Shown piece after piece: positions 3,636 to 58,682 of a DNA stretch of 63,111 nucleotides. The DNA comes from Cytophagales bacterium (GTDB lineage: Bacteria; Bacteroidota; Bacteroidia; Cytophagales; Cytophagaceae). Position 1 is the first letter of the stretch; every line of letters starts with the position of its first letter. The translations under genes and the position numbers were made by a program. Below the pieces are notes generated by a model. That model made no database searches and was not told where the DNA came from. It saw nothing but the letters and a program-made list of their open reading frames with translations. The stretch covers positions 1-63,111 of the forward strand of contig JAAFID010000001.1 in NCBI GenBank assembly GCA_013297765.1. Reading direction: 5' to 3'.

Positions 3636-4067
3636 CTAGCACCCCATCTTCGCTACTCTAGTGGCATGGCGACCACCTTCAAATTCGGTAGCTACAAATT
3701 TTTCTACGCAATCTTTAGCGGTGCCTAAATCAATAAATCTGGCTGGTAGGCATATTACGTTTGCGTTGTTGTGCTGCCTTGCAAGGCTAGCTATTTCTAC
3801 ATTCCAGCATAGTGCCGCTCTTACGCCAGCATGTTTATTGGCTGTGATGGCTACCCCGTTTCCGCTTCCACAAATTAGAATACCTAGGATGCAACTTTCT
3901 GATTCGACTGCATTAGCCACTGGATGTGCAAAGTCTGGATAATCTACCGAAGCCTCGGTATGTGTTCCAAAATCTACTACTTCATGCCCCATACCTTCAA
4001 GCATGATTTTAATTTCTGATTTGTAAAATGGGCTGGCATGATCGCCACCAATGGCTATTTTTGACAT
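3636..4067 (-). CDS. rpiB: ribose-5-phosphate isomerase B
   Basis: 143 aa. Typical RpiB/LacAB signature: MSKIAIGGDHA..., GILICGSGNGVAITANKH, NANVICLPARF. Confidence 0.9.
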   Translation of the reverse strand: MSKIAIGGDHASPFYKSEIKIMLEGMGHEVVDFGTHTEASVDYPDFAHPVANAVESESCILGILICGSGNGVAITANKHAGVRAALCWNVEIASLARQHNNANVICLPARFIDLGTAKDCVEKFVATEFEGGRHATRVAKMGC

Positions 4068-4087
4068 CGCTAAAGTTTTTTATATAA

Positions 4088-4900
4088 TTAAGAATTCATA
4101 AATTCATCGTGAGCTATTTGTCTTGATTTAAAAACACTAGCAGAGATAAATATACTTATTTCATACAATAACAAAAGAGGTACTGCTACTATGGTTTGTG
4201 TGAAGAAATCGGGTGATGGGGTAATAATGGCAGCAACAATGAAGATAACCACCACCGCATGACGTCGGTATTTTCGCATCAGCACAGGGGTTACGATACC
4301 AATTTTTGAAAGTACAAATATCAGAACTGGCAATTGAAACATAATACCACTGCCCAATACCATAGCGGTAAGCAACGAAATATAGTTGGTCAAATCTATC
4401 ACATTGGGTATGCTCTCGTCAATCTTATAATTGATTAAAAAATTAAAAGATAATGGCACTATCACATAGTAACCAAAAAGAACACCCAAAAAGAAAAGCA
4501 TACTTACAAAAAACACTGCCCCACGGGTTGCTTTTTGTTCTGGGGCGTACAATCCTGGCTTGATAAATTTCCACAATTCCCAAATGATATAGGGAAAAGA
4601 GCAACACAAGCCAAACACCAATGCTGTTTTTATGTGCATCATAAACTGACCAGTCATGCTGCGGTTTTGCATTTGAAAATTGATGCCAGAGATACATAAC
4701 GAATCGCTCAGTTCGCATAGCATTCTATAGGTCCAAAAATCGTCTCGCATGGGTGCAAGTAGAATCTCTCGGAATATAAAACTGATGCCAAAAAAACCAA
4801 TGGTAGTAAAGATAATCATAGCAATCACCGAGCGTACCACGTGCCACCGCAAATCTTCTAAGTGATCTAGAAAGGACATTTCGCCACCTGTGGGCTTCAT
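4088..4900 (-). CDS. tatC: twin-arginine translocase subunit TatC
   Basis: 270 aa. Has the MSFLDHLEDLRWHVVRS N-terminal TatC motif and six hydrophobic helices. Confidence 0.9.
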   Translation of the reverse strand: MKPTGGEMSFLDHLEDLRWHVVRSVIAMIIFTTIGFFGISFIFREILLAPMRDDFWTYRMLCELSDSLCISGINFQMQNRSMTGQFMMHIKTALVFGLCCSFPYIIWELWKFIKPGLYAPEQKATRGAVFFVSMLFFLGVLFGYYVIVPLSFNFLINYKIDESIPNVIDLTNYISLLTAMVLGSGIMFQLPVLIFVLSKIGIVTPVLMRKYRRHAVVVIFIVAAIITPSPDFFTQTIVAVPLLLLYEISIFISASVFKSRQIAHDEFMNS

Positions 4901-4952
4901 GTTTTTGATAAAATCGAATAGGATAATTTTAGAGATTAGAGGGTGAAAAAAA

Positions 4953-4985
4953 TTGTCTCTATCACTAGAATCGGGATAGAGACAA
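4953..4985 (-). terminator. rho-independent terminator downstream of glyA
   Basis: Perfect 11-bp stem TTGTCTCTATC / GATAGAGACAA with an 11-nt loop. On the minus strand it is followed by a U-run (plus-strand A7 at 4946-4952). Confidence 0.6.
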
Positions 4986-4996
4986 TAAAAATTTAA

Positions 4997-6289
4997 TTAG
5001 GCGTACAATGGAAAATTTTTCATCCAAGTATTTACTTCTTGCTTTACTGTTTCCATTTTACCGTCATTTTCATGATTCATTAATACGGTATCTATCAAAG
5101 AAACAATTTTTTCCATGTCGCTTTCTTGCATGCCACGGGTAGTAATAGCGGCAGTACCCACACGCATACCTGATGTTACAAATGGAGATTTATCATCAAA
5201 TGGAACCATGTTTTTATTAATGGTAATGTCGGCTTTGATTAAAGCGTTTTCAGCTTGTTTTCCACTCAGGTTTTTCGAGCGAAGGTCAATCAACATCAAA
5301 TGGTTGTCAGTACCTCCTGATATAATTTGGTATCCTTTTTCTATAAATGCTTTTGCCATAGCTTGTGCATTGTTTTTTACCTGCACAGCATATTGGTAGT
5401 AGTCATCAGAAAGTGCTTCGTGAAATGCAATTGCTTTTGCTGCAATAATATGTTCCAGCGGACCACCTTGCGTACCAGGGAAAACGCCCATGTCTAGCAA
5501 ACTCGACATCATTTTCAAATCACCTTTTGGGGTAGTTTGACCAAATGGATTTTCAAAATCATTGCCCATCATAATCACACCACCTCTAGGACCTCTCAGT
5601 GTCTTGTGGGTAGTAGTCGTTACTATATGACAATGTTGTATAGGATGGTTTAGCAACCCTTTGGCAATAAGCCCGGCAGGGTGCGATATGTCGGCCAAAA
5701 GTATGGCACCTACTTGGTCGGCTATGCTACGCAATCTAGCATAATCCCAATCTCTGGAATAAGCAGAAGCTCCGCAAATCAACATTTTTGGTTTTTCTTT
5801 TAAAGCTATTTCCTCTACTTTGTTCCAATCTATAGTACCAGTTTCACGATCTACACCGTAAAAAAATGGCTGATATAATTTTCCGGAAAAGTTTACTGGT
5901 GAACCATGGGTTAGGTGACCACCATGCGAAAGATCAAAACCTAATATTTTATCGCCAGCACTAAGGCAGGCTAGCATTACTGCTGCATTGGCTTGAGCAC
6001 CAGAGTGAGGCTGCACATTTGCCCAAGTAGCACCAAACAATTCTTTCAAGCGGTCAATTGCTAATTGCTCGGCCTCATCTACTACCTCGCAACCTCCGTA
6101 ATATCTTTTGCCTGGTAAGCCTTCAGCATATTTGTTAGTGAGTACACTTCCTGCCGCTTCCATCACTTGTTTTGATGTAAAGTTTTCAGAGGCAATAAGC
6201 TCTATGCCATGCTCTTGCCTTTGGGCTTCCCTGTTGATGATGTCAAATATTTTTGAATCTCTTGCAATCGATTTTACTGTAGTTTCCAT
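4997..6289 (-). CDS. glyA: serine hydroxymethyltransferase
   Basis: 430 aa. Full-length SHMT pattern including the PLP-lysine region [14 protein letters not shown]. Confidence 0.97.
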
Positions 6290-6384
6290 AGTGTAGAATT
6301 GTATGTTTCAAAATTAAGATTTGTAAGGGTAGCAAACAAAGATTTTGTGATTTGATAGGAATTATTATTTAAAAATAAATACAA

Positions 6385-6418
6385 AAAAGCCGTAGCTCTT
6401 TGCAGAACTACGGCTTTT
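6385..6418 (-). terminator. rho-independent terminator downstream of ahcY
   Basis: Stem AAAAGCCGTAG / CTACGGCTTTT with a 12-nt loop, 20 nt past the ahcY stop codon. A/T runs on both sides make it potentially bidirectional. Confidence 0.6.
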
Positions 6419-6437
6419 AAATATTTAGTAATTAATA

Positions 6438-7745
6438 CTAGTATCTGTATTCGTCAGATTTGAATGGACCAGCAACTGGAACTTTGATATAATCTGCTTG
6501 CTCTTGGGTAAGTGTATCTAGTTCCACACCTATTTTCTCAAGGTGCAACATTGCTACTTTCTCATCCAAATGTTTTGGCAAGGTATATACATCATTTTTG
6601 TAGCTGCTTGCATTTTGCCATAACTCGAGCTGTGCCAATACTTGATTGGTAAATGAATTTGACATTACGAAAGATGGGTGACCTGTAGCACAACCAAGGT
6701 TTACTAATCTACCTTCTGCCAATACCAATACTTCGTGACCATCAACATTGTATTTATCTACTTGTGGTTTAATCTCCACTTTAGTATTGCCGTAGTTTTT
6801 ATTCAACCAAGCCATATCAATTTCATTGTCAAAGTGACCAATGTTACACACAATAGCTTTGTCTTTCATGGATTTGAAATGGCGACCTACAACTATGTTA
6901 TAATTTCCAGTAGCAGTAACGATTATGTCGGCTCTTTTTACAGCATCATCCATTTTCTTTACTTCAAATCCATCCATAGCAGCTTGCAATGCACAAATAG
7001 GGTCAATTTCAGTTACTATAACTCTAGCACCTGCACCTTTCAATGAAGCAGCAGAACCTTTTCCTACATCGCCGTAACCCGCAACTAGGGCTACTTTACC
7101 AGCCATCATTACGTCTGTCGCTCTTCTGATTGCATCTACCAATGATTCTTTGCAACCGTATTTGTTGTCAAATTTAGATTTAGTAACCGAATCGTTGATA
7201 TTGATTGCTGGCAAGGTTAGTGTGCCATTTTTTACTCTATCTTTTAATCTCAAAACTCCAGTAGTAGTCTCTTCAGAAATGCCTTTGATGCCTGAGGCCA
7301 ACTCTGGAAATTTGTCCAATACCATATTGGTAAGGTCGCCACCATCGTCTAGAATCATGTTCAATGGTTTTCTGTCGTCGCCAAAGAACAAGGTTTGCTC
7401 TATACACCAGTCAAACTCTTGCTCATTCATGCCTTTCCAAGCATATACAGAGATGCCAGCAGCGGCAATAGCAGCAGCAGCATGATCTTGAGTAGAAAAA
7501 ATATTGCAAGATGACCAAGTTACTTCTGCACCCAACTCTACTAGCGTTTCAATCAACACCGCTGTTTGAATAGTCATGTGCAAGCAACCTGCAACTCTAG
7601 CACCTTTCAAAGGCTTAGAAGGGCCAAATTCTTTTCTTATAGACATCAAACCTGGCATTTCTGCCTCGGCAAGTTGTATCTCTTTACGTCCCCATGCCGC
7701 AAGCGACATGTCTTTTACTTTATATTTTACAAGCGTTTCAACCAT
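6438..7745 (-). CDS. ahcY: adenosylhomocysteinase
   Basis: 435 aa. Conserved AdoHcyase features: [20 protein letters not shown]-binding GYGDVGKG, C-terminal [10 protein letters not shown]. Confidence 0.97.
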
Positions 7746-21897: not shown

Positions 21898-21972
21898 GGG
21901 AGCTTAGCTCAGCTGGTTCAGAGCATCTGCCTTACAAGCAGAGGGTCGGGGGTTCGAACCCCTCAGCTCCCA
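21898..21972 (+). tRNA. tRNA-Val (anticodon TAC)
   Basis: Manual cloverleaf folding. Acceptor GGGAGCT/AGCTCCC, D-arm AGCTCAGCTGGTTCAGAGC, anticodon stem-loop TCTGC-CTTACAA-GCAGA, T-arm GGGGGTTCGAACCCCC-like. Discriminator A; CCA is not encoded. Confidence 0.9.
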
Positions 21973-21978
21973 CATTAA

Positions 21979-51586: not shown

Positions 51587-51706
51587 CACCAAAGGAAAAT
51601 AACGATTTTCTTATTTTCGTTTGGTGCCACTAAAGTAAAATATAGATTTTCTTATTTTACTTTGGGTGCTCCAAAGTAAAATAAAGGTTCTCTTATTTTA
51701 CTTTGG
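51587..51706. repeat. three tandem 41-bp units, each an imperfect or perfect 14-16-bp inverted repeat
   Basis: Unit A: CACCAAAGGAAAATAA-CGATTTTC-TTATTTTCGTTTGGTG. Unit B: CACTAAAGTAAAATA-TAGATTTTCT-TATTTTACTTTGGGTG. Unit C: CCAAAGTAAAATAA-AGGTTCTC-TTATTTTACTTTGG. The core TTATTTT recurs at 51611, 51652 and 51693, an exact 41-bp period. Confidence 0.85.
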
Positions 51707-51759
51707 TTCAAATAGGTTTAAATACGATTCATATATATAAATTCTATTATTTTATCATT

Positions 51760-52026
51760 CTAAAAAAGCTGTTGTGTATCCGCAACATTGGAAAGTGTCA
51801 TTTTGCCGTCTGCTGCAAGCATTTTCCGAACGATACAATTTGTAACGGTTTTGTATTCCTTTTTCTTTAAGCGTTTTTTCATCTCCCTCCAAAAATCTTG
51901 CAGATTAGGGATATCGGTAAGAATAGCTATAACATCAACAATTGATATATTACATTTCTCTTGATCAGCAACTAAGGGCTCATGCCTGAATTTTTCAAAT
52001 AATTGGATGGCATTGGCATGTGTCAT
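51760..52026 (-). CDS. Bro-N-like (phage antirepressor-type) domain fragment, C-terminally truncated
   Basis: 88 aa. SIVDVIAILTDIPNLQDFWREMKKRLKK...KMLAADGKMTLSNVADTQQLF resembles the conserved core of Bro-N family proteins as I remember them. It stops where the family normally continues for about 80 or more aa. Confidence 0.4.
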   Translation of the reverse strand: MTHANAIQLFEKFRHEPLVADQEKCNISIVDVIAILTDIPNLQDFWREMKKRLKKKEYKTVTNCIVRKMLAADGKMTLSNVADTQQLF

Positions 52027-52244: not shown

Positions 52245-52277
52245 AAAACATCCCCAATTAATAGTTTCTAATTGAGG
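52245..52277 (-). terminator. terminator downstream of the NAMPT-like gene
   Basis: Minus-strand hairpin CCTCAATTA-GAAACTAT-TAATTGGGG (one G-U pair), followed by a U-run (plus-strand A6 at 52243-52248). Confidence 0.5.
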
Positions 52278-52307: not shown

Positions 52308-53768
52308 TTAAGATTTAATTTTATTTAATTGGTTTCTAATCTCAGCCAACGATTGGTCTACCAATAATTTACCATCTCTAAAAACTTCTTTCATTTCGCC
52401 TTGTTGTTCCTGTTCCCACGAGGCTTGATCGATAAGTTTGTAAATTCCGTTTTCGATTTCAATTTTCATTAATCCTTTTGCAGATTTTTTTGTTCCATCG
52501 TCTGTAATTGGGTCTTTAAAAATCTCTCTTCCATTGCCATTTACCTCGCCATAAGTGGCTTTCATGGCAAACCCAAAGGTATCTCTTGTATTGTATTGGT
52601 AAGTGTAAGACCCAATTCCCAAAACTACATTTGTAGATGCAAAACCTTTGTTTTTTAAACGTTCACAAATTTGAGTTGCCCTAGCAACTGTGATGCTGTC
52701 TCCATAGATAGCTCCAATATGTGGATCTAATTCTCTAAATCCTTTCGAATTAGTATGCCCGCCAAAAGTTTGCCAAAGCAATTCAATAACTCCTTTTCTT
52801 TCTGCATCATTTTTACCCTCAGAATTGCCGCAAATAATATCAACTGGGTCGCCGCTATCAGGTCTTATTACAACTTTACCAGCTCTACTCAAAATTTCGT
52901 TTTTCAATTTTGGTAGATATTCGGTAAGCACTTTCCACAAATCCCAAGTGTCTGAAACTATTGAGATTATTCCTTTGGGGTATACTTCACAAACCAACCT
53001 GCGAAAGGTGCCAATTTCATCTTCAATTGTTCCCATACACATGACACTATGTTCGGTGGCTGCAACAGAACCTCCAATCAATTCTTTATCAGAATTTGCA
53101 TTGTAATACTTCTCTAGTAAACTAATTGCGGGAATAGTATCTGTACCGCTAAAACTTAAAAGATGGCCGCTAGCAGAAATCAAACTTGCTTCAATACCAG
53201 CCATTCCTCTCATAGAAAAATCGTGACCTTGCCAATCTACAAATTCAGGAATAGTCGAAGTTTCACCAGCATACCTATCCAATACTTTTCTATATTGCTT
53301 AGCAATAGTTGCAGAGGTGCAAGGCATCCATACCACTGCTGAAACCAATGTTTCAAAATAGTTGGTAAGCCAGAAAAATTCTGGCAAAGTATTATACATC
53401 GTAAACATAGGCACTCTCATAGGTACGCTTACACCTTCAGGAAGAGCCTTAATAACCATAGGAATGTACCCGAGATCATGCAAATCTTCGATATGCTTCG
53501 TCCCAACTTGATTTTCGCCCAAATAATTATTTATTCTACGGCTATATTCAGCTACTACTATTTCTTTAAGTTGTTTAAAGAAATAGGTCTCAAAATCTTC
53601 CAAGATATATTTTTTAATAAAATACTGTAGTCCAAACAATACAACTTCTTCTACACCATCAATTCGACTTTTTCTTGGTGTCCAATTGGAGTATACCAAG
53701 GTAGTTCCTTCTGGATATTGTCTTCTATGGTCTACTTTGTAACCATCGGTTAATAGTAAGGGATTCAT
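52308..53768 (-). CDS. nadV: nicotinamide phosphoribosyltransferase family protein (NadV/NAMPT-like; possibly Namat-like)
   Basis: 486 aa. MNPLLLTDGYKVDHRRQYPEG N-terminus, HDFSMRG (phospho-His context) and VIRPDSGDP align by eye with NAMPT along the full length. Confidence 0.88.
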   Translation of the reverse strand: MNPLLLTDGYKVDHRRQYPEGTTLVYSNWTPRKSRIDGVEEVVLFGLQYFIKKYILEDFETYFFKQLKEIVVAEYSRRINNYLGENQVGTKHIEDLHDLGYIPMVIKALPEGVSVPMRVPMFTMYNTLPEFFWLTNYFETLVSAVVWMPCTSATIAKQYRKVLDRYAGETSTIPEFVDWQGHDFSMRGMAGIEASLISASGHLLSFSGTDTIPAISLLEKYYNANSDKELIGGSVAATEHSVMCMGTIEDEIGTFRRLVCEVYPKGIISIVSDTWDLWKVLTEYLPKLKNEILSRAGKVVIRPDSGDPVDIICGNSEGKNDAERKGVIELLWQTFGGHTNSKGFRELDPHIGAIYGDSITVARATQICERLKNKGFASTNVVLGIGSYTYQYNTRDTFGFAMKATYGEVNGNGREIFKDPITDDGTKKSAKGLMKIEIENGIYKLIDQASWEQEQQGEMKEVFRDGKLLVDQSLAEIRNQLNKIKS

Positions 53769-53770
53769 AT

Positions 53771-54172
53771 TTATATATATTTATGTTTAGATAAAATTTT
53801 AGTGACATTATTTAACTCATCATACACTTGTCTTAATCCAGCCCTATCATCTAAATAGGCATTGGCATAGACTTTTCGACTTGTGGATTTATGAAATGGT
53901 GGATTTTCGTTGATAGCATCAAATGGAATTCTATTTTCTATTAAGTATGTTTTTACAAAATCTAAATCTTCTTGACCTGTCCAACATATTAAATAGCAAT
54001 TAATTGATTTTAATGTTTGTAAAAGGCTAACTACTTCGCTATAGATTCTGCCTTTTTTGTGAAAATCATATACTGTATCGTCGAAATCAAAGGCAATTAC
54101 CAACGAATTGTATTTAATATATTCATCAATTAATCTATTGGTTGAGTTTTCAATATCTAGATAGTAATCCAT
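53771..54172 (-). CDS. minimal HAD-superfamily phosphatase-like protein
   Basis: 133 aa. Motif I FDFDDTV (DxDxT), motif II ICWTG, motif III/IV K..YANAYLDDRA. No cap domain. Overlaps the prs-like gene by 23 nt and ends 2 nt before the nadV-like start. Confidence 0.55.
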   Translation of the reverse strand: MDYYLDIENSTNRLIDEYIKYNSLVIAFDFDDTVYDFHKKGRIYSEVVSLLQTLKSINCYLICWTGQEDLDFVKTYLIENRIPFDAINENPPFHKSTSRKVYANAYLDDRAGLRQVYDELNNVTKILSKHKYI

Positions 54173-54992
54173 TACTTAATTTGATTTGAGTTAAACCATC
54201 GCTTTCCATATTTCTAAAAGAATCCGTTGTAAAAATTCTTTCAAAACATTTCAAATCATCAAAACCTTTACTAAAAATCCCATGACTAACTGCTAAATAT
54301 AATTTTCCGGCATTTTTATTTTTGAGTTCTGTGGCTAGGCCTATAAAAGTGCCACCCCCATCACAGATATCGTCGACTATCAAGCAATCTTTGCCATGTA
54401 AGTCTTCTGAATACACTTTAAACCCCTTTAAGTTTCCAGTCTTCACATCTCTACTTTTGCTACACTCTACTACCTCTATACCACCCAAAGATTCAGAAAC
54501 TTTGTATATTTTTTTCAATGCACCACCATCTGGAGAAACCAATAAAACATCATTTCCTATTTCTTGAACTACTTCCTTAAGGAATGAATGATTGGTAATT
54601 ACCTCACAATTATTTAATACAGCAGCTGTAACTTCCGAATGAGCATCAAATACTATAACCTTTTCAAAATTAAAATTGTTGATAATATCAGCATAGACTT
54701 TTACTGATAAAGGTTCACCCAAAATCATAACTCGGTCTTGCCTAGCAGAAGGGAAATATGGAATAATTAAAACTTTCAATTTAATTTTCATTCTCTGCAA
54801 TGCATCTACTGCTAAACATAGCAAACCTAGATCTTGAAAGGAGTTCAATCTATGTGTGATTGTGACACCCACTGACTTGTCAAAGTTTGGATTTATTTTA
54901 ATGTGAGGCTCGCCCCCTGCAAAGGTGAAATTTTCAAATTGTATTTCTTCGCCAGGTAATGGTTTAAAATTTTTATCTAAATTAAGTATCAT
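54150..54992 (-). CDS. divergent ribose-phosphate pyrophosphokinase family protein (Prs-like; possibly Adps-like)
   Basis: About 280 aa from the ATG at 54992. Has FAGGEPHIKI, IPYFPSARQDR and the PRPP-loop LIVDDICDGGGT. It is shorter than, and divergent from, housekeeping Prs of about 315 aa. Confidence 0.8.
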   Translation of the reverse strand: MILNLDKNFKPLPGEEIQFENFTFAGGEPHIKINPNFDKSVGVTITHRLNSFQDLGLLCLAVDALQRMKIKLKVLIIPYFPSARQDRVMILGEPLSVKVYADIINNFNFEKVIVFDAHSEVTAAVLNNCEVITNHSFLKEVVQEIGNDVLLVSPDGGALKKIYKVSESLGGIEVVECSKSRDVKTGNLKGFKVYSEDLHGKDCLIVDDICDGGGTFIGLATELKNKNAGKLYLAVSHGIFSKGFDDLKCFERIFTTDSFRNMESDGLTQIKLSNGLLSRY

Positions 54993-55020
54993 ATTTTTAC
55001 ATTTAGTGTAATTGTTACGC

Positions 55021-55040
55021 AAAATAAATTAAAATAAATT
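55021..55040. repeat. perfect 10-bp tandem duplication in the nrtR/prs-like spacer
   Basis: AAAATAAATT occurs twice back to back (55021-55030 and 55031-55040). Confidence 0.6.
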
Positions 55041-55065
55041 ATCGAACAAATATTATGTGTATTAT

Positions 55066-55758
55066 TTACGCAAAGTTAATTTCAAATAAAATTCCTTCCT
55101 TAATTAATTTGTTGTATTTCAATTTATTAAATTTATAAAGCTTTGCTGGCCTTCCTTTTATATTATTTCCATACTTGTCAGTTTCCTCAACAATACCAAA
55201 ACTCAATATTTTTTTCCTAAAATTTCTACGGTCAATTTCTTTTTCCAAAATGGTACAATATAGATTTTCAAGTTCAGAAAACAAAAATTCTTTGGGTAGC
55301 AAATCGAATCCAATAGGTTGATAAGTAAGTTTACTTTGAAGTCTATTTAGAGCCATTTTCAGTATAGATTCATGGTCAAAAGCCAGCATGGGTAATTCTT
55401 TAATAGAAAACCATTTCGCTTCTTCAGCATCACTATCTGCTTTTAAATTTAATTTGCTTGAATTGACCAATGCAAAATAAGCCACAGAAACCACCCTAAA
55501 TCTTGGATCTCGCTCAATATCATCTCCAAAAGTATATAGCTGTTCTAAAAAATTTACTTTTATGCCAGCTTCTTCTACCAGCTCTCTATTTACTGCATTA
55601 ATTAACGTTTCATTGTCTTTGACAAATCCACCTACAAGTGCCCACTGATTTTTTAATGTTCCAAACTTCTGTTTAATAAGCAAAACATTTAATCTATTAT
55701 CTGCATAACCAAAAACAATAGCATCAACTGCTATTTTAATATTTTGTTGAAAATCCAT
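55066..55758 (-). CDS. nrtR: NrtR-type Nudix-related transcriptional regulator (Nudix domain plus C-terminal winged helix)
   Basis: 230 aa. Complete Nudix box GFVKDNETLINAVNRELVEEAGI, then a C-terminal domain of about 80 aa (FSELENLYCTILEKEIDRRNFRKKILSFGIV...GRPAKLYKFN) typical of NrtR. Heads a prs/nadV-type operon. Confidence 0.82.
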   Translation of the reverse strand: MDFQQNIKIAVDAIVFGYADNRLNVLLIKQKFGTLKNQWALVGGFVKDNETLINAVNRELVEEAGIKVNFLEQLYTFGDDIERDPRFRVVSVAYFALVNSSKLNLKADSDAEEAKWFSIKELPMLAFDHESILKMALNRLQSKLTYQPIGFDLLPKEFLFSELENLYCTILEKEIDRRNFRKKILSFGIVEETDKYGNNIKGRPAKLYKFNKLKYNKLIKEGILFEINFA

Positions 55759-55943
55759 CCATTATACGTTAGTGAATCAAATACATATTATAACTAATTA
55801 GCTAGATACAACATTTTGAAAGTTTCTAAAAATACATCAAATAATACTAAAAATTATTAATCAAATTTAATGATTAGGAAAAATTTAAAATAATTTTAAC
55901 TCTATGATATTCTTTAATTAACACAACATTATTCACCATCCCC

Positions 55944-56852
55944 CTACAACAAATCCCCCAAAGCCTCTTCTATTTTTTCAAACTGAAACTGAAAACCTGT
56001 GCCTAAAATTTTACTTGGCGACACTCGACTACCGCCCAATACAAAGGATGCTTTCTCTTTGCCCAAAATCATATTCATCACAAAGGCAGGAACGGCGGGC
56101 AACCAAAGGGGGCGGTGCAAAGTGGCGGCAATGGCTTTGGTAAGGGCAGCATTGGTCAATGGCTGTGGCGATGCAGCATTGTACACGCCGCTCATCTGTT
56201 GGGTGGCTATTGCATGAATAAAAATACGACACAGGTCATCTACATGCACCCAAGGTGTCCACTGCTGGCCTGTACCCAAGGGGGCACCCACCATGAACTT
56301 GACAGGTGCTGCCAACTGTTCTAGTGCTCCCCCTGTTTTCGACAACACAATACCTATACGCACCTTTACGGTGCGAATATCGAGAGCTGCCACCTCATCT
56401 ACCGCAGCTTCCCATGCTACTACTACATCGGCTAGGAAACCTGTAGCTGCAGCGTCTTGCTCGCTATGCCAATGAACAGTTGTATCGCTACCATATATGC
56501 CAATAGCCGAGGCTGATACTATACAGTCTGGTTTTTTGTTGGCTTGCCTTATCGCTGCGGCTAACAATTGGGTAGAAAGTATGCGGCTATCTAGAATCTG
56601 ATTTTTATATGCTGGTGTCCAAGCCTTGTCAAACACGCCTGCCCCTGCCAAATGAACGATAACATCGTTGTCAAGAATTGCATTGGGGTCTATATAATTT
56701 TTATCAATATCCCACAAATATGTTTTGACACCTGTAGCCGAAGTTGCTTTGCGACTTAGGTGGGCAACTTCGTAACCATCTTGTTGTAGCAACTGGGTAA
56801 GGCGGCTACCCACTGTACCAGTGCCTCCGGTAATCAATACTTTCTTCTTCAT
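55944..56852 (-). CDS. TIGR01777/YfcH-like NAD-dependent epimerase family protein (SDR fold plus DUF1731-type C-terminus)
   Basis: 302 aa. Rossmann motif VLITGGTGTVGSRL. Conspicuously GC-rich relative to its neighbours, with many spurious overlapping ORFs in the track. Confidence 0.8.
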   Translation of the reverse strand: MKKKVLITGGTGTVGSRLTQLLQQDGYEVAHLSRKATSATGVKTYLWDIDKNYIDPNAILDNDVIVHLAGAGVFDKAWTPAYKNQILDSRILSTQLLAAAIRQANKKPDCIVSASAIGIYGSDTTVHWHSEQDAAATGFLADVVVAWEAAVDEVAALDIRTVKVRIGIVLSKTGGALEQLAAPVKFMVGAPLGTGQQWTPWVHVDDLCRIFIHAIATQQMSGVYNAASPQPLTNAALTKAIAATLHRPLWLPAVPAFVMNMILGKEKASFVLGGSRVSPSKILGTGFQFQFEKIEEALGDLL

Positions 56853-57716: not shown

Positions 57717-58682
57717 ATGCACCAGCAAACCCATATTTCGACAGCTATTACTGCCGCTACAGACCTGCTAAAACAGGGAGAGTGCGTAGCCATACCTACC
57801 GAAACTGTATATGGGCTGGCAGCAAACGCAACCGATGTAGGGGCGGTGGCAAAAATATTTGAAATCAAAAATCGTCCATTTTTCGACCCCCTCATCATTC
57901 ATACCGATTCGATAGAAAAATTAAAAAAATACATTACCCATTTGCCAGAACCAGCAGCCTTGTTGGCTGGTAGATTTTGGCCTGGTCCGCTTACCTTGCT
58001 ATTGCCAAAGACAGATGCCATTCCTGACCTTGTTACCTCTGGGCTAGCACGTGTAGCGGTGCGTATTCCGCACCATCCACTTACCCTTCAATTGCTGTCT
58101 CGGCTAGATTTTCCTCTTGCTGCACCAAGTGCCAACCCCTTTGGCTACATAAGCCCCACAAAAGCAAGCCATGTGTACGAGCAGTTGCAGGGCAAACTAG
58201 CACTAATACTCGATGGTGGCGATTGCGAGGTGGGTTTAGAATCTACCATAGTGGGTTTTGAAAATGAACAACCAATAATCTATCGCCTAGGTGGACTAAG
58301 TGTTGAGGCTATAGAAGAAGTAGTTGGCAAAGTGATAGTAATGCCCCACTCCAGCTCTTCGCCACAGTCGCCCGGCATGCTACAATCGCACTACGCCCCT
58401 AGAAAACCGATGGTATTCGATGATTTTGAGCAAGTCGTTGCAGCATATTCACCTTCAGAAATAGGCACTATATGTTTTGAAAATGCTAAGGCGAATATTC
58501 CCCTAGCCAATCAATGGGTACTATCGCCCAACGGCAATCTAGCAGAGGCCGCAGCAGCACTATTTTCTGCTATGCGAAGTTTAGATGCTGGCACTGTTAA
58601 AGTCATTTTTGCCGAGCAATTTCCAGCTTATGGACTAGGCCTAGCCATCAACGACCGATTGCGACGAGCATCTGCTTTATAA
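57717..58682 (+). CDS. tsaC: L-threonylcarbamoyladenylate synthase (Sua5/YwlC type, with C-terminal Sua5 domain)
   Basis: 321 aa. Has VAIPTETVYGLAANA, the KNRPFFDPLIIH-like motif and SANPFG. Confidence 0.9.
   Translation: MHQQTHISTAITAATDLLKQGECVAIPTETVYGLAANATDVGAVAKIFEIKNRPFFDPLIIHTDSIEKLKKYITHLPEPAALLAGRFWPGPLTLLLPKTDAIPDLVTSGLARVAVRIPHHPLTLQLLSRLDFPLAAPSANPFGYISPTKASHVYEQLQGKLALILDGGDCEVGLESTIVGFENEQPIIYRLGGLSVEAIEEVVGKVIVMPHSSSSPQSPGMLQSHYAPRKPMVFDDFEQVVAAYSPSEIGTICFENAKANIPLANQWVLSPNGNLAEAAAALFSAMRSLDAGTVKVIFAEQFPAYGLGLAINDRLRRASAL

What the first reader, a model, noticed from the sequence alone, without database searches (positions are those of the whole stretch)
52308..55943. NrtR-headed Prs-like / HAD / NAMPT-like operon: candidate chromosomal ADP-ribose-to-NAD+ reconstitution module (NARP1-like)
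**Seen in the sequence.** Four co-directional minus-strand genes are tightly packed.
- nrtR is followed by a 73-nt spacer and then the prs-like gene.
- The prs-like gene overlaps the HAD-like gene by 23 nt.
- The HAD-like gene ends 2 nt before the NAMPT-like gene, which is followed by a terminator.
- By eye the block is clearly more AT-rich than the GC-rich gene to its right.
- To its left sit a truncated Bro-N-like (phage-type) fragment and an iteron-like repeat array.
- No NMN adenylyltransferase gene (nadM, nadR or nadD type) lies in or next to the cluster.

**Established knowledge.**
- NrtR repressors are released from DNA by ADP-ribose and often control prs-nadV operons (Rodionov and colleagues, 2008).
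- The phage NARP1 pathway (Sorek laboratory, 2024) consists of exactly a Prs homolog plus a NAMPT homolog. Adps makes ADPR-pyrophosphate from ADPR and ATP. Namat joins ADPR-PP to nicotinamide to give NAD+ directly. This counteracts NAD-depleting immunity.

**Inference.** The Prs-like protein is divergent and short, there is no NMNAT, the regulator senses ADPR, and the neighbourhood is phage-scarred. This locus could therefore be a host-encoded, ADPR-induced NARP1-type NAD+ rebuilding system rather than simple PRPP supply plus NMN synthesis. The extra HAD-like gene is not part of either described pathway.
Basis: partly seen in the sequence, partly recalled or inferred. Interest (0 to 1): 0.8.

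Follow-up and report, generated by a model that had tools for sequence, protein, structure and literature searches.

The report
ADP-ribose-switched NAD+ rebuilding operon
This is a chromosomal bacterial copy of the phage "NARP1" pathway, which rebuilds NAD+ directly from ADP-ribose and nicotinamide; here it sits behind conserved binding sites for a probable ADP-ribose-sensing repressor and carries an extra, uncharacterised small phosphatase gene that also travels with NARP1 in phages.

Summary
Four tightly packed minus-strand genes lie at the stated coordinates: nrtR, a Prs-like gene, a HAD-like gene and a NAMPT-like gene.

- **NAMPT-like protein:** it carries the published Namat signature (GSYTYQYNTRD) and the stacking Arg35. 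It keeps 18 of 20 NAD+-contact residues of the crystallised SPβL1 Namat. It scores 619 bits against that enzyme, versus 247 (human NAMPT) and 210 (Xanthomonas NAMPT).
- **Prs-like protein:** it has the Adps traits. It is 280 aa long and lacks the C-terminal α11–α12 module. It has the DDICDGGGTF PP loop, Lys179 (ICP1 Lys185) and phrog_619 membership. It fails the housekeeping Prs models.
- **Operators:** two 21-bp NrtR-type palindromes (TTTGCGTAA-N3-TTACRCAAA) lie between nrtR and the Prs-like gene and are conserved in 70 Bacteroidota loci.
- **HAD protein:** all catalytic motifs are intact and it has no Pfam family. It recurs beside Adps/Namat in phages and bacteria in four gene orders.

In relatives, the slot the HAD gene occupies holds NADAR, Macro, ADP-ribosylglycohydrolase, PARG or Tpt1 genes instead.

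Chromosomal bacterial NARP1 was already published (2024–2026). What I did not find published is the explicit NrtR wiring, the HAD accessory and the cargo slot. No biochemistry was possible.

The parts
55066..55758 (-). nrtR: Nudix-related transcriptional repressor, 230 aa, with an intact Nudix box (GFVKDNETLINAVNRELVEEAGI)
   Evidence: Pfam hits are NUDIX at 69.7 bits and NrtR_WHD at 82.3 bits. NCBIfam NF050029 scores 157 bits, below its 400 cut-off. The closest PDB entries are B. thetaiotaomicron AraR 5BS6 (161 bits) and S. oneidensis NrtR 3GZ5 (89 bits). An orthologue lies directly upstream of the Prs-like gene in 70 of 80 related loci.
55054..55074 (-). Distal NrtR-type operator, TTTGCGTAAATAATACACATA. 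It overlaps the last two codons and the stop codon of nrtR.
   Evidence: It was found by pattern search. An equivalent site starts 6 nt before the stop codon in 69 of 70 related loci, with the consensus TTTGCGTAAtTTTTACACAAA. It has the 21-bp palindrome and GT-N7-AC core that define NrtR boxes.
55003..55023 (-). Proximal NrtR-type operator, TTTGCGTAACAATTACACTAA. It ends 10 nt before the ATG of the Prs-like (adps) gene.
   Evidence: It is conserved in all 70 loci, matching 19-21 of 21 positions. Its centre lies 50-53 bp from the distal site. It overlaps a Bacteroidetes-type -7 element (TAnnTTTG) in 65 of 70 relatives. In the window itself that element is one T short (TATTTTG).
54150..54992 (-). 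adps-like gene: predicted ADP-ribose pyrophosphokinase, 280 aa, Prs fold
   Evidence: phrog_619 scores 269.7 bits, TIGR01251 scores 130 bits, and every Prs equivalog model is far below its cut-off. Identity is 41-46% to phage Adps of the ICP1 and Bas63 types and 29% to E. coli Prs. Alignment A1 (ICP1 numbering) shows F18, R87, H121, D161, K185, D212 and D213 conserved, the PP loop DDICDGGGTF, no C-terminal α11-α12 module, and F92 replaced by Met.
53771..54172 (-). Small capless HAD-type phosphatase, 133 aa; a NARP1-associated accessory whose substrate is unknown
   Evidence: It has no Pfam family. phrog_1238 scores 93 bits. The HAD motifs D29-x-D31-x-T33, T65, K100 and D108-D109 are invariant. 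The AlphaFold2 model has pLDDT 80.9, and the best fold match is the HAD protein BT_0820 (2OBB; E 4.6e-4). It lies next to Adps/Namat in Bacillus Wphvirus phages, Phass-1, a crAss-like phage and 45 of 80 viral contigs.
52308..53768 (-). namat-like gene: predicted nicotinamide ADP-ribose transferase, 486 aa
   Evidence: It scores 619 bits to SPβL1 Namat (9W5X/9W5W), 247 to human NAMPT and 210 to Xcc NAMPT (7YQO). The SCH motif G386-SYTYQYNTRD-396 and the SCL residue R35 are present. Of the 20 NAD+-contact residues, 18 are identical; the two changes are A362 to S358 and F392 to Y388.
52252..52277 (-). Terminator-like hairpin followed by a T-run, closing the operon
   Evidence: This is weak evidence, because such matches are as common in shuffled sequence.
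55759..55943 (-). AT-rich region upstream of nrtR, presumed to hold its own promoter. No NrtR box is present here.
   Evidence: No site was found within 3 mismatches of the search pattern. At least 30 relatives have a third box ending about 5 nt before the nrtR ATG.

Best explanation
The locus is a horizontally acquired, host-regulated NARP1 module with one accessory enzyme.

**Proposed mechanism.**
1. In the resting state, NrtR binds two 21-bp operators between nrtR and adps. The proximal operator sits on the promoter/-7 region of the adps-HAD-namat operon and represses it. *(The operators are shown; binding is inferred.)*
2. NAD+ is cleaved by NADases, by ADP-ribosyltransferases followed by hydrolases, or by RNA-repair enzymes. 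Free ADP-ribose (ADPR) rises, binds the Nudix domain of NrtR and releases it from DNA. *(Inferred from EMSA work on S. oneidensis and Synechocystis NrtR.)*
3. The Prs-like enzyme (Adps) converts ADPR + ATP to ADPR-pyrophosphate + AMP.
4. The NAMPT-like enzyme (Namat) joins ADPR-pyrophosphate to nicotinamide, giving NAD+ + PPi. No NMN adenylyltransferase is needed. *(Steps 3 and 4 are inferred from signature residues and from homology to assayed enzymes.)*
5. The HAD phosphatase most likely removes a ribose-linked phosphate from an ADPR derivative that Adps cannot use. Candidates are ADPR-1''-phosphate, or the monophosphate left when ADPR-pyrophosphate decays through ADPR-cyclic phosphate. This would return the derivative to the ADPR pool, as the Macro-domain phosphatase Adpp does in phage NARP1-AP. 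*(Contextual inference only; my probability for this sub-claim is about 0.4.)*
6. As ADPR is consumed, NrtR rebinds, so the pathway runs only when NAD+ has actually been broken.
For: **Namat identity.**
- The SCH motif, SCL Arg35 and 18 of 20 NAD+ contacts are present.
- It scores 619 bits to the crystallised Namat, versus 247 and 210 bits to canonical NAMPTs.
- 61 of 62 Bacteroidota orthologues keep the motif.

**Adps identity.**
- It lacks α11-α12 and has the conserved PP loop and catalytic Lys.
- phrog_619 scores 270 bits, while all Prs equivalog models fall below their cut-offs.
- It is closer to phage Adps than to E. coli Prs.
- In the published survey, 97% of Adps-clade genes have a Namat neighbour.

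**Precedent.** A chromosomal bacterial NARP1 makes NAD+ from ADPR and nicotinamide in vitro and rescues cells from a Sir2 NADase.

**Regulation.**
- The regulator has the Nudix plus winged-helix architecture.
- Two tandem palindromes with the NrtR GT-N7-AC core are conserved in 70 loci at fixed positions and 50-53-bp spacing. The proximal one overlaps a -7 promoter element in 65 of 70.
- S. oneidensis nrtR-prs-nadV likewise has two tandem sites, and ADPR releases its NrtR.
- NrtR is linked to Adps/Namat-type genes in three different arrangements: Bacteroidota, Acinetobacter baumannii and a Burkholderia megaplasmid.

**HAD accessory.**
- All catalytic motifs are invariant.
- It is linked to Adps/Namat in four gene orders across unrelated phages and bacteria. 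All 10 closest viral homologues are so linked.
- It occupies the same position as the Adpp phosphatase in the Vibrio phage Gary operon.
- In 62 Bacteroidota loci it is nearly exclusive with NADAR/Macro cargo. Counts are 1 with both, 14 HAD only, 38 NADAR/Macro only and 9 neither.
- ADPR-pyrophosphate is known to decay to ADPR-cyclic phosphate.
Against: **General.** No biochemical or expression data exist for this locus.

**Regulator.**
- The closest solved relative is the arabinose-sensing AraR of Bacteroides (161 bits), not the S. oneidensis NrtR (89 bits).
- The NCBIfam equivalog for the ADPR-responsive repressor is not reached (157 bits versus a cut-off of 400).
- ADPR as the effector therefore rests on context and on an intact Nudix box.

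**Enzymes.**
- One ADPR-contacting aromatic residue of ICP1 Adps (F92) is Met here.
- Validated Namat still makes NMN from PRPP in vitro at about half the NAMPT rate. A contribution to ordinary nicotinamide salvage therefore cannot be excluded.

**Promoter and operators.** In the window itself the -7 element is imperfect, and the third operator upstream of nrtR seen in relatives is missing.

**HAD accessory.**
- 35 of 80 viral HAD homologues have no Adps or Namat within 5 kb.
- The fold search gives no substrate clue beyond 'capless HAD'.
- The exclusivity statistic ignores shared ancestry.

**Genome.** Whether it holds a separate housekeeping prs is unknown, because only 63 kb is available.
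Confidence: 0.75

Rival explanations
1. This is classical NrtR-controlled nicotinamide salvage. The Prs paralogue supplies PRPP, the NadV makes NMN, and an NMN adenylyltransferase encoded elsewhere in the genome finishes NAD+. This is how such operons were annotated in 2008.
For: - Rodionov et al. listed nrtR-prs-nadV operons, including one in Cytophaga hutchinsonii, under this reading.
- The NCBIfam model PRK09198 and the broad Prs subfamily model TIGR01251 are both passed.
- Validated Namat retains NMN-forming activity in vitro.
- From my own memory, not checked here: Acinetobacter NadV was reported to support nicotinamide salvage together with NadM.
Against: - The Namat selectivity-clamp residues are all present, whereas canonical NAMPTs have GSGGGLLQKLTRD at that position.
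- The Prs-like protein fails every Prs equivalog model and lacks the C-terminal regulatory module.
- The 2008 authors themselves called a dedicated Prs for NadV 'quite unexpected' and left it unexplained.
- No NMN adenylyltransferase is linked to the cluster in any of the 80 related loci examined.
Confidence: 0.12
2. This is a remnant phage anti-defence cassette stranded in a decayed prophage or island. It is carried passively, or it serves incoming or resident phages rather than the host.
For: - The block has low GC and GC3 relative to its flanks.
- A truncated gene of a phage-associated family and a repeat array lie next to it.
- All three enzymes fit phage protein families best.
- Namat is at least 90% identical across three Bacteroidota classes, while the two flanking proteins looked up (Sua5-like and YfcH-like) have no relative at 90% identity, which indicates recent horizontal transfer.
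Against: - The module carries a bacterial-type repressor with conserved operators in 70 species-level genomes.
- All genes are intact, with overlapping or abutting reading frames.
- The flanks are ordinary cellular genes: TPM-domain, YfcH-like and Sua5.
- No integrase or nearby tRNA is present; the only tRNA lies 30 kb away.
- Published surveys find NARP1 enriched in non-mobile chromosomal regions.
Confidence: 0.08
3. The core is NARP1, but the HAD protein has a role unrelated to ADPR derivatives. Examples would be a pyrophosphatase that pulls the Namat reaction forward, a pentose-bisphosphate or PRPP-related phosphatase, or a nucleotidase.
For: - Weak fold matches include a phage D-arabinose-1,5-diphosphate phosphatase (9IQW) and the RNA-end phosphatase Pnkp1.
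- 35 of 80 viral homologues are not next to NARP1.
- More distant homologues sit among RNA-repair genes in Listeria phages.
Against: - The closest homologues (48% identity or more) are all NARP1-linked.
- In relatives, the same slot is filled by enzymes that all act on ADP-ribose adducts or derivatives.
- Cellular pyrophosphatase is abundant, which makes a dedicated one unnecessary (general knowledge).
Confidence: 0.3

Closest known systems
Phage NARP1 (Adps + Namat of Bas63, SPβL1 and ICP1; Osterman et al. 2024; structures PMC12774641 and PMC13586617)
   Same: - Both have the two-enzyme core in the order adps then namat.
- Both have the Namat selectivity clamp.
- Both have a truncated Adps with a remodelled PP loop.
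- Identity is 60% to SPβL1 Namat and 41-46% to phage Adps.
   Different: - This copy is encoded in a bacterial chromosome.
- It is placed behind a repressor with operators.
- A HAD gene is inserted between the two core genes.
- Adps F92 is Met.
Chromosomal bacterial NARP1 (Paenibacillus foliorum pfNARP1, PMC12774641; AntiDefenseFinder survey, 10.1101/2024.08.21.608784)
   Same: Both are host-encoded Adps+Namat pairs outside recognisable mobile elements. The P. foliorum pair has been shown to be active.
   Different: - This locus is in a different phylum (Bacteroidota).
- Those papers do not discuss regulation by NrtR or accessory genes, and they state that the physiological role is unknown.
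NARP1-AP (adps - Macro phosphatase Adpp - namat of Vibrio phage Gary; 10.64898/2026.01.28.702374)
   Same: Both are three-gene operons with a phosphatase gene between adps and namat. The role proposed here, returning a phosphorylated ADPR to the ADPR pool, is the same.
   Different: - The phosphatase here has a HAD fold, not a Macro (Poa1p-like) domain.
- Its substrate has not been tested.
NrtR-regulated prs-nadV operons (Shewanella oneidensis, Acinetobacter, Chromobacterium, Cytophaga hutchinsonii; Rodionov et al. 2008, PMC2330246)
   Same: - Both show the nrtR-prs-nadV arrangement.
- Both have two tandem 21-bp operators with a GT-N7-AC core between nrtR and prs.
- In both, the regulated prs is a dedicated prs-like gene distinct from a housekeeping Prs; a second, housekeeping copy is reported for those species but could not be checked in this genome.
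   Different: - Those operons were interpreted as PRPP supply plus NMN synthesis.
- They have no HAD gene.
- The A. baumannii copy I examined carries Adps/Namat signatures as well, so the older class probably needs the same reinterpretation.
NrtR/WYL-regulated ADP-ribosylglycohydrolase-centred systems (Iyer et al. 2022, PMC9503650, section 3.8)
   Same: Both have a Nudix-type repressor presumed to sense ADPR, a conserved core with swappable ADPR-processing cargo (Macro, NADAR, phosphatases including HAD), and an expected off-by-default logic.
   Different: - The core there is an ADP-ribosylglycohydrolase plus a phosphatase, with no Adps/Namat pair.
- Those systems are found in actinobacteria, planctomycetes and proteobacteria.
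- They are proposed to remove viral ADP-ribosylation, not to rebuild NAD+.
NARP2 (NadV + NMN adenylyltransferase of phage KVP40)
   Same: Both include a NAMPT-family enzyme used to restore NAD+.
   Different: NARP2 uses PRPP and needs an NMN adenylyltransferase. Neither feature is seen here.

Membership tests
Namat (NARP1 nicotinamide ADP-ribose transferase) | Selectivity-clamp helix motif GSXΦXΦXΦTRD with aromatic X residues | tested here: met
   The window has G386-S-Y-T-Y-Q-Y-N-T-R-D396. Human NAMPT aligns GSGGGLLQKLTRD at the same position.
Namat (NARP1 nicotinamide ADP-ribose transferase) | Selectivity-clamp loop residue that stacks on adenine (SPβL1 Arg40) | tested here: met
   Arg35 lies in WTPRKSR. 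The same motif is present in 60 of 62 Bacteroidota orthologues (WTPRRSR in one more).
Namat (NARP1 nicotinamide ADP-ribose transferase) | Closer to an assayed or crystallised Namat than to canonical NAMPT | tested here: met
   Bit scores are 619 (9W5X/9W5W), 247 (human) and 210 (Xcc 7YQO). Of the 20 NAD+ contacts, 18 are identical.
Namat (NARP1 nicotinamide ADP-ribose transferase) | Prefers ADPR-pyrophosphate over PRPP and forms NAD+ directly | not testable with these tools
   This needs an enzyme assay.
Adps (ADPR-pyrophosphate synthetase) | PRPS fold lacking the C-terminal α11-α12 module | tested here: met
   The protein is 280 aa and ends where ICP1-type Adps ends. In alignment A1, E. coli Prs continues past that point with its C-terminal region (…[22 protein letters not shown]), which the window protein lacks.
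Adps (ADPR-pyrophosphate synthetase) | Conserved remodelled PP loop and catalytic β-hairpin lysine | tested here: met
   The window has DDICDGGGTF, ICP1 has DDICDGAASF and E. coli Prs has DDMIDTGGTL. ICP1 K185, D212, D213, R87, H121 and D161 are invariant in A1.
Adps (ADPR-pyrophosphate synthetase) | Aromatic and cationic contacts to the adenine of ADPR (F18, R87, F92) | tested here: inconclusive
   F18 and R87 are conserved. F92 is Met in the window and in its Bacteroidota relatives.
Adps (ADPR-pyrophosphate synthetase) | Namat gene in the immediate vicinity (97% of the clade) | tested here: met
   The two genes are separated only by the 133-aa HAD gene.
Adps (ADPR-pyrophosphate synthetase) | Pyrophosphorylates ADPR, not ribose-5-phosphate | not testable with these tools
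   This needs an LC-MS assay.
Housekeeping ribose-phosphate diphosphokinase (Prs) | Reaches the curated cut-off of a Prs equivalog model | tested here: not met
   The best scores are 108.8 (cut-off 297, NF002320) and 104.6 (cut-off 296, NF002095). Only the broad subfamily model TIGR01251 is passed, at 130 against 113.
Canonical NAMPT/NadV | Family-level profile match | tested here: met
   NF006629 scores 594 bits against a cut-off of 405. This model does not separate Namat from NadV, so it does not decide the question.
Canonical NAMPT/NadV | Lacks adenine-binding clamp residues (the SCH-equivalent region is non-aromatic) | tested here: not met
   The aromatic residues Y388, Y390 and Y392 are present.
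NrtR repressors | N-terminal Nudix-like domain plus C-terminal winged-helix DNA-binding domain | tested here: met
   PF00293 covers residues 10-132 and PF21906 covers residues 150-210.
NrtR repressors | 21-bp palindromic operator with a GT-N7-AC core at target genes | tested here: met
   Two sites lie at 55003-55023 and 55054-55074, and both are conserved in 70 loci.
NrtR repressors | Curated equivalog score for the ADPR-responsive repressor (NF050029) | tested here: not met
   The score is 157 bits against a cut-off of 400. The closest solved structure is the arabinose-sensing AraR.
NrtR repressors | DNA binding relieved by ADP-ribose | not testable with these tools
   This needs EMSA. One supporting hint is that the Nudix box is intact here (RELVEEAG) and degenerate in AraR (RVLAELTG).
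HAD-superfamily phosphatases | Four catalytic motifs: DxDxT, S/T, K and DD | tested here: met
   D29, D31, T33, K100, D108 and D109 are invariant, and T65 is nearly invariant, across 13 distant and 35 close homologues.
HAD-superfamily phosphatases | Rossmann-like HAD fold | tested here: met
   The AlphaFold2 model has pLDDT 80.9. The best Foldseek hit is 2OBB (BT_0820), with E 4.6e-4 and TM-scores 0.59 and 0.64. No cap domain is present.
NARP1-AP phosphatase Adpp | Macro domain homologous to yeast Poa1p | tested here: not met
   There is no Macro hit and the fold is HAD. It is therefore not a member of this family; at most it is a functional analogue.
NARP1-AP phosphatase Adpp | Dephosphorylates ADPR-1''-phosphate to ADPR | not testable with these tools
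   This needs an assay with purified ADPR-1''-phosphate.
Prophage or integrative element | Integrase, flanking tRNA or att repeats, and phage structural genes near the locus | tested here: not met
   The only tRNA is at 21898-21973. The flanks are TPM-domain, YfcH-like and Sua5 genes. Only a truncated 88-aa gene fragment and a low-GC signature are present.

The most novel reading that the evidence does not exclude
Two linked claims make up the most novel reading that my evidence does not exclude.

1. The small HAD protein is a third, non-Macro class of NARP1 accessory enzyme. It would convert a phosphorylated ADP-ribose into usable ADPR. The substrate could be ADPR-1''-phosphate from RES-type NADases or from Tpt1 products, or the decay product of ADPR-pyrophosphate.
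2. The Bacteroidota locus nrtR-adps-[swappable cargo]-namat is an ADPR-induced system. It would couple the stripping of ADP-ribose from damaged or attacked macromolecules and metabolites to immediate NAD+ resynthesis.

Together these would supply the so-far unknown physiological role of 'domesticated' bacterial NARP1. They would also explain the dedicated prs paralogue that has been noted as a puzzle since 2008.
Probability: 0.35. Interest if true: 0.75.

Novelty: new variant of a known kind. Interest (0 to 1): 0.55.

Why it matters
**An open question it addresses.** The papers that reported bacterial NARP1 say explicitly that its role in bacteria is unknown. This locus and its 80 relatives offer a concrete, testable answer.
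- The pathway sits behind a probable ADPR-sensing repressor, so it would run only when NAD+ has been broken.
- In relatives, the space between the two core genes collects enzymes that liberate or tidy up ADP-ribose: NADAR, Macro, ADP-ribosylglycohydrolase, PARG, and Tpt1 paired with a metallophosphoesterase.

**An old puzzle it would resolve.** It would retrospectively explain why NrtR regulons contain a dedicated prs paralogue, a point flagged as unexplained in 2008.

**A new candidate enzyme.** The HAD protein is a candidate new NARP1 accessory. It is present in about 6% of sampled viral NARP1 loci and about a quarter of the Bacteroidota ones. It could mark resistance to NADases that yield phosphorylated ADPR.

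**Annotation.** Genome pipelines currently name these genes ribose-phosphate diphosphokinase, nicotinate phosphoribosyltransferase, and 'hypothetical' or 'phosphoheptose isomerase'. All of these names are probably wrong.

Tried and rejected

- An exact look-up of the Namat-like protein in public contigs found nothing.
- Cluster look-ups show that the two flanking proteins looked up (Sua5-like and YfcH-like) have no relative at 90% identity, so the organism could not be named beyond Bacteroidota.
- The PDB copy holds no Adps structure. I used the ICP1-type protein of phage JSF14 instead. Its numbering matches all the residues named in the Adps structure paper that I checked.
- Two of my own regular expressions were wrong and were corrected (and 108 to 109).
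- The 2012 de Souza & Aravind paper and a 2015 review on NAD/ADP-ribose gene neighbourhoods could not be opened. Prior description of these neighbourhoods there cannot be excluded.
- A proper Prs/Adps phylogeny was not built, because only one canonical Prs sequence (E. coli) was at hand. I relied on profile scores and signature residues instead.

**Readings considered and rejected.**
- The PHROG label 'phosphoheptose isomerase' for the HAD protein was rejected. The protein has all the HAD motifs and the predicted HAD fold.
- 'Bro-N' for the 88-aa fragment was rejected because there is no Pfam hit.
- An intact prophage was rejected because no integrase or nearby tRNA is present.
- The idea that HAD-only viral loci would reveal the substrate did not work out. 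One such locus lies next to a Tad2-like gene, and the others lie next to weak radical-SAM matches.

Full report
**1.

Four co-directional minus-strand genes occupy 52308-55758.
- nrtR: 55066-55758, 230 aa.
- A Prs-like gene: 54150-54992, 280 aa from its ATG.
- A HAD-like gene: 53771-54172, 133 aa.
- A NAMPT-like gene: 52308-53768, 486 aa.

The stated spacings are exact: a 73-nt spacer, a 23-nt overlap and a 2-nt gap.

The block is AT-rich. Its GC is 0.328 and its GC3 is 0.21-0.28. The yfcH-like gene to the right has GC 0.474, and the flanking genes have GC3 of 0.38-0.44.

A terminator-like hairpin follows the last gene. Such hits are no more common here than in shuffled sequence.

To the left lie two features.
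- An 88-aa N-terminal fragment of a roughly 280-aa family (phrog_15286; PADLOC PDC-S13). It has no Bro-N Pfam hit.
- Three copies of a palindromic unit at 41-nt spacing.

No NMN adenylyltransferase, and no second Prs, is detectable anywhere in the 63-kb window.

**2. The NAMPT-like protein is a Namat.**

The structural paper on SPβL1 Namat defines a 'selectivity clamp'. It consists of a helix motif GSXΦXΦXΦTRD with aromatic X residues, plus a loop residue (Arg40) that stacks on the adenine of NAD+. Both are absent from NAMPT.

The window protein reads GSYTYQYNTRD at residues 386-396 and has Arg35 at the loop position. Human NAMPT aligns GSGGGLLQKLTRD there.

Of the 20 residues that contact NAD+ in the crystal structure, 18 are identical. 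The other two are conservative changes, A362 to Ser358 and F392 to Tyr388.

The protein scores 619 bits against 9W5X/9W5W, the Namat crystal structures. It scores 247 bits against human NAMPT and 210 bits against the canonical bacterial NAMPT of Xanthomonas, 7YQO.

**3. The Prs-like protein is an Adps.**

The Adps structure paper names three family traits.
- Loss of the C-terminal α11-α12 module.
- A conserved, remodelled PP loop that binds the ATP donor.
- A catalytic lysine (Lys185) on a β-hairpin.

I aligned the window protein with the ICP1-type Adps of phage JSF14. The numbering of that protein reproduces the residues named in the paper that I checked. The window protein ends where Adps ends and has DDICDGGGTF where E. 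coli Prs has DDMIDTGGTL. It conserves F18, R87, H121, D161, K185, D212 and D213. F92 is Met.

It fits the phage family phrog_619 at 270 bits. It falls far below the cut-off of every housekeeping Prs equivalog model. Its identity is 41-46% to phage Adps and 29% to E. coli Prs.

In the original survey, 97% of Adps-clade genes had a Namat neighbour.

**4. Regulation.**

The first gene has a Nudix domain and the NrtR winged-helix domain.

In 70 of the 80 closest Bacteroidota loci an orthologue lies directly upstream of adps. The spacer is 72-75 nt in 63 of those 70 loci (range 65-82).

Within that spacer there are two 21-bp palindromes, TTTGCGTAA-N3-TTACRCAAA. Both have the GT-N7-AC core that Rodionov et al. 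gave as the hallmark of NrtR boxes.
- The distal site begins 6 nt before the nrtR stop codon (window 55054-55074).
- The proximal site ends about 10 nt before the adps ATG (window 55003-55023).
- Their centres are 50-53 bp apart.
- The proximal site overlaps a Bacteroidetes -7 element (TAnnTTTG) in 65 of 70 loci.

This mirrors the two tandem sites that bind NrtR upstream of prs-nadV in Shewanella oneidensis, where ADP-ribose releases the repressor.

There are caveats.
- The closest solved structure is the arabinose-sensing AraR of Bacteroides.
- The curated NrtR equivalog score is not reached.
- ADPR as the effector is therefore inferred. The inference rests on context and on the intact Nudix box RELVEEAG, which is degenerate in AraR.
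- A third box just upstream of nrtR exists in at least 30 relatives but not in the window.

**5. The HAD gene is a recurrent NARP1 companion.**

*What the protein is.* It has no Pfam family, but all the HAD catalytic motifs are invariant. Its predicted structure (pLDDT 80.9) is a capless HAD fold. The closest structural match is the uncharacterised BT_0820.

*Context in annotated phages.*
- Bacillus Wphvirus phages have prs-nampt-HAD.
- Phage Phass-1 has prs-nampt-HAD.
- A crAss-like phage has nampt-HAD-prs.

*Context in viral contigs.*
- Among 80 contigs with a HAD homologue, 45 have Adps and/or Namat within 5 kb, in four gene orders.
- All 10 closest homologues are so linked.
- The linked NAMPT-like genes carry the Namat motif.
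- In a reciprocal sample of 80 viral Adps loci, 5 carried the HAD gene and 8 carried a Macro gene. None carried both.

*More distant homologues are not linked.* This holds for Listeria phages and Ralstonia phage RSL2.

*Literature.* I found no paper in the held library that mentions a HAD protein in NARP1.

**6. The slot between adps and namat is a cargo bay.**

In 62 Bacteroidota loci that contain both core genes, the gap between them ranges from 7 to 4948 nt. It is filled almost exclusively with co-directional genes. Pfam identifies them as follows.
- NADAR, Macro, ADP-ribosylglycohydrolase and Macro-glycohydrolase fusions.
- Tpt1/KptA RNA 2'-phosphotransferase, in 24 loci. In most of the 15 loci that also carry a calcineurin-like phosphoesterase, that gene follows it directly.
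- Microbial PARG, DUF4291, a nucleoside-deoxyribosyltransferase-like protein and a 137-aa unknown.
- Occasional mobile-element insertions.

The HAD gene fills this slot in 17 loci. It is nearly exclusive with NADAR/Macro. The counts are 1 with both, 14 HAD only, 38 NADAR/Macro only and 9 neither. The naive Fisher p-value is 3.5e-7, not corrected for shared ancestry.

Published phage accessories of NARP1 all deliver ADPR to Adps.
- The Macro phosphatase Adpp converts ADPR-1''-phosphate to ADPR.
- The glycosidase RyDEP converts cyclic ADPR signals to ADPR.

ADPR-pyrophosphate itself decays to ADPR-cyclic phosphate. The most economical reading is that the HAD enzyme dephosphorylates a phosphorylated ADPR species. 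This is inference from context only.

**7. Mechanism.**

1. NrtR occupies the two operators and keeps adps-HAD-namat off.
2. NAD+ cleavage raises ADPR.
3. ADPR releases NrtR from DNA.
4. Adps makes ADPR-pyrophosphate from ADPR and ATP.
5. Namat joins it to nicotinamide to give NAD+.
6. HAD salvages phosphorylated ADPR.
7. Falling ADPR restores repression.

What is shown here is the gene order, the signatures, the operators and their conservation. What is inferred is every enzymatic step and the identity of the effector.

**8. What is known and what is new.**

*Already published.*
- Bacterial NARP1 outside mobile elements was noted by Osterman et al. They also pointed to ADPR-dependent transcription as a possible link.
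- AntiDefenseFinder found NARP1 enriched in non-mobile chromosome, with 469 occurrences in Acinetobacter.
- The Paenibacillus foliorum pair was shown to be active.

The central idea of the finding is therefore already published.

*Not found in the held library.*
- An explicit statement that NrtR operators gate NARP1.
- An explicit statement that the 2008 'prs-nadV' regulons are NARP1.

Two further loci I examined support the second point.
- The Acinetobacter baumannii prs-nadV-nrtR locus carries DDICDGGATF and GSFTYNYLTRD.
- A Burkholderia megaplasmid has a divergent Nudix regulator next to a prs-nampt pair that carries GSYTYNMLSRD.

*Related but distinct.* Iyer et al. (2022) described NrtR/WYL-regulated systems centred on ADP-ribosylglycohydrolases, with similar swappable cargo but without Adps/Namat.

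**9. Origin.**

The module is compositionally foreign. Its Namat is at least 90% identical to proteins from Pseudarcicella, Pedobacter and Paenimyroides, whereas the two flanking proteins looked up (Sua5-like and YfcH-like) have no relative at 90% identity. Its flanks differ in every genome examined. It has therefore spread horizontally among Bacteroidota as a regulated unit. Relatives are present in at least 315 species-level genomes.

**10. Verdict.**

The finding is a new variant of a known kind, namely chromosomal NARP1 with NrtR gating and a HAD accessory.

My interest score is moderate. The core idea is published. The HAD accessory, the operator architecture and the cargo slot give a direct experimental handle on the open question of what bacterial NARP1 is for.

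Noticed in passing
L012-L091 (Bacteroidota loci), between the adps and namat genes: The space between the two core genes is a variable, co-directional cargo slot of 7-4948 nt. It holds NADAR, Macro, ADP-ribosylglycohydrolase, Macro-glycohydrolase fusions, Tpt1/KptA, calcineurin-like phosphoesterase, microbial PARG, DUF4291, a nucleoside-deoxyribosyltransferase-like protein and a 137-aa protein with no family.
   Followed up: partly
L041, L044, L046, L047, L052, L055, L058, L059, L061, L062, L067, L069, L081, L090, L091: A Tpt1/KptA gene is followed, directly in most of these loci, by a calcineurin-like phosphoesterase gene. Tpt1 produces ADP-ribose 1''-2'' cyclic phosphate, so the pair may form a sub-module that feeds ADPR derivatives into the pathway.
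   Followed up: no
About 5 nt upstream of the nrtR ATG in at least 30 of L012-L091 (e.g. L012:5208-5228); window 55759-55943: Many relatives have a third NrtR-type box immediately upstream of nrtR, which implies autoregulation. No such site is present in the window at up to 3 mismatches to the search pattern.
   Followed up: partly
window 55066-55758: This NrtR keeps a complete Nudix hydrolase signature (GX5EX7REUXEEXGU), as do 24 of 69 orthologues. According to Rodionov et al., an intact signature correlates with real ADPR pyrophosphatase activity. If so, the repressor might also degrade its own inducer.
   Followed up: partly
window 51760-52026 (minus strand): This 88-aa ORF matches only the first 88 or so residues of families about 275-286 aa long (phrog_15286; PADLOC candidate defence protein PDC-S13). 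It is a truncated gene at the edge of the low-GC block and has no Bro-N Pfam hit.
   Followed up: partly
window 51589-51724: Three copies of a palindromic unit (CCAAAGTAAAATAA ... TTATTTTACTTTGG) occur at 41-nt spacing in the intergenic region left of the truncated ORF. Their function is unknown.
   Followed up: no
window 52308-53768 compared with 55944-56852 and 57717-58682: The Namat-like protein belongs to a 90%-identity cluster of 168 members spanning Pseudarcicella, Pedobacter and Paenimyroides. The flanking YfcH-like and Sua5 proteins are singletons at 90% identity. This indicates recent horizontal spread of the module.
   Followed up: partly
L174 (Acinetobacter baumannii chromosome) 3983-7074; L175 (Burkholderia plasmid pM7012) 3110-6488: The classical proteobacterial prs-nadV-nrtR arrangement also carries the Adps PP loop (DDICDGGATF / DDICDGGRTF) and a Namat-type motif (GSFTYNYLTRD / GSYTYNMLSRD). 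The 2008 NrtR 'prs-nadV' regulons are therefore probably NARP1 as well.
   Followed up: partly
L111:5650-6051: In a viral contig where the HAD homologue is not next to Adps/Namat, the adjacent gene encodes a Tad2-like (Thoeris anti-defence 2) domain. This is another protein that handles ADP-ribose-derived molecules.
   Followed up: no
L176-L255 (viral contigs with Adps): In this sample, a nucleoside-2-deoxyribosyltransferase-like gene (PF15891 type) is the most frequent companion of viral Adps/Namat, at 12 of 80. That is more than Macro (8), NADAR (5) or HAD (5). One viral contig also carries an NrtR homologue.
   Followed up: no
L005 (Listeria phage LP-048) 1-5203: A distant homologue of the HAD protein sits among RNA-repair genes (RtcB-like ligase, RNA ligase, phosphoesterase) and a DUF1768 protein. 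From memory, DUF1768 corresponds to the NADAR family, but I did not check this. This hints at an older link between this HAD clade and RNA-end or ADP-ribose chemistry.
   Followed up: no
L002 (phage Phass-1) 896-4411: A gene annotated as nicotinamidase lies directly upstream of prs-nampt-HAD. A nicotinamidase would remove the nicotinamide that Namat needs, so either the annotation or the logic deserves a look.
   Followed up: no
L033/L038 (IS200-like), L051 (AbiH), L032 (NERD-like), L048 (YhcG nuclease): Mobile-element and defence-type genes are occasionally inserted inside the cargo slot. This is consistent with the slot being a hotspot for gene gain.
   Followed up: no
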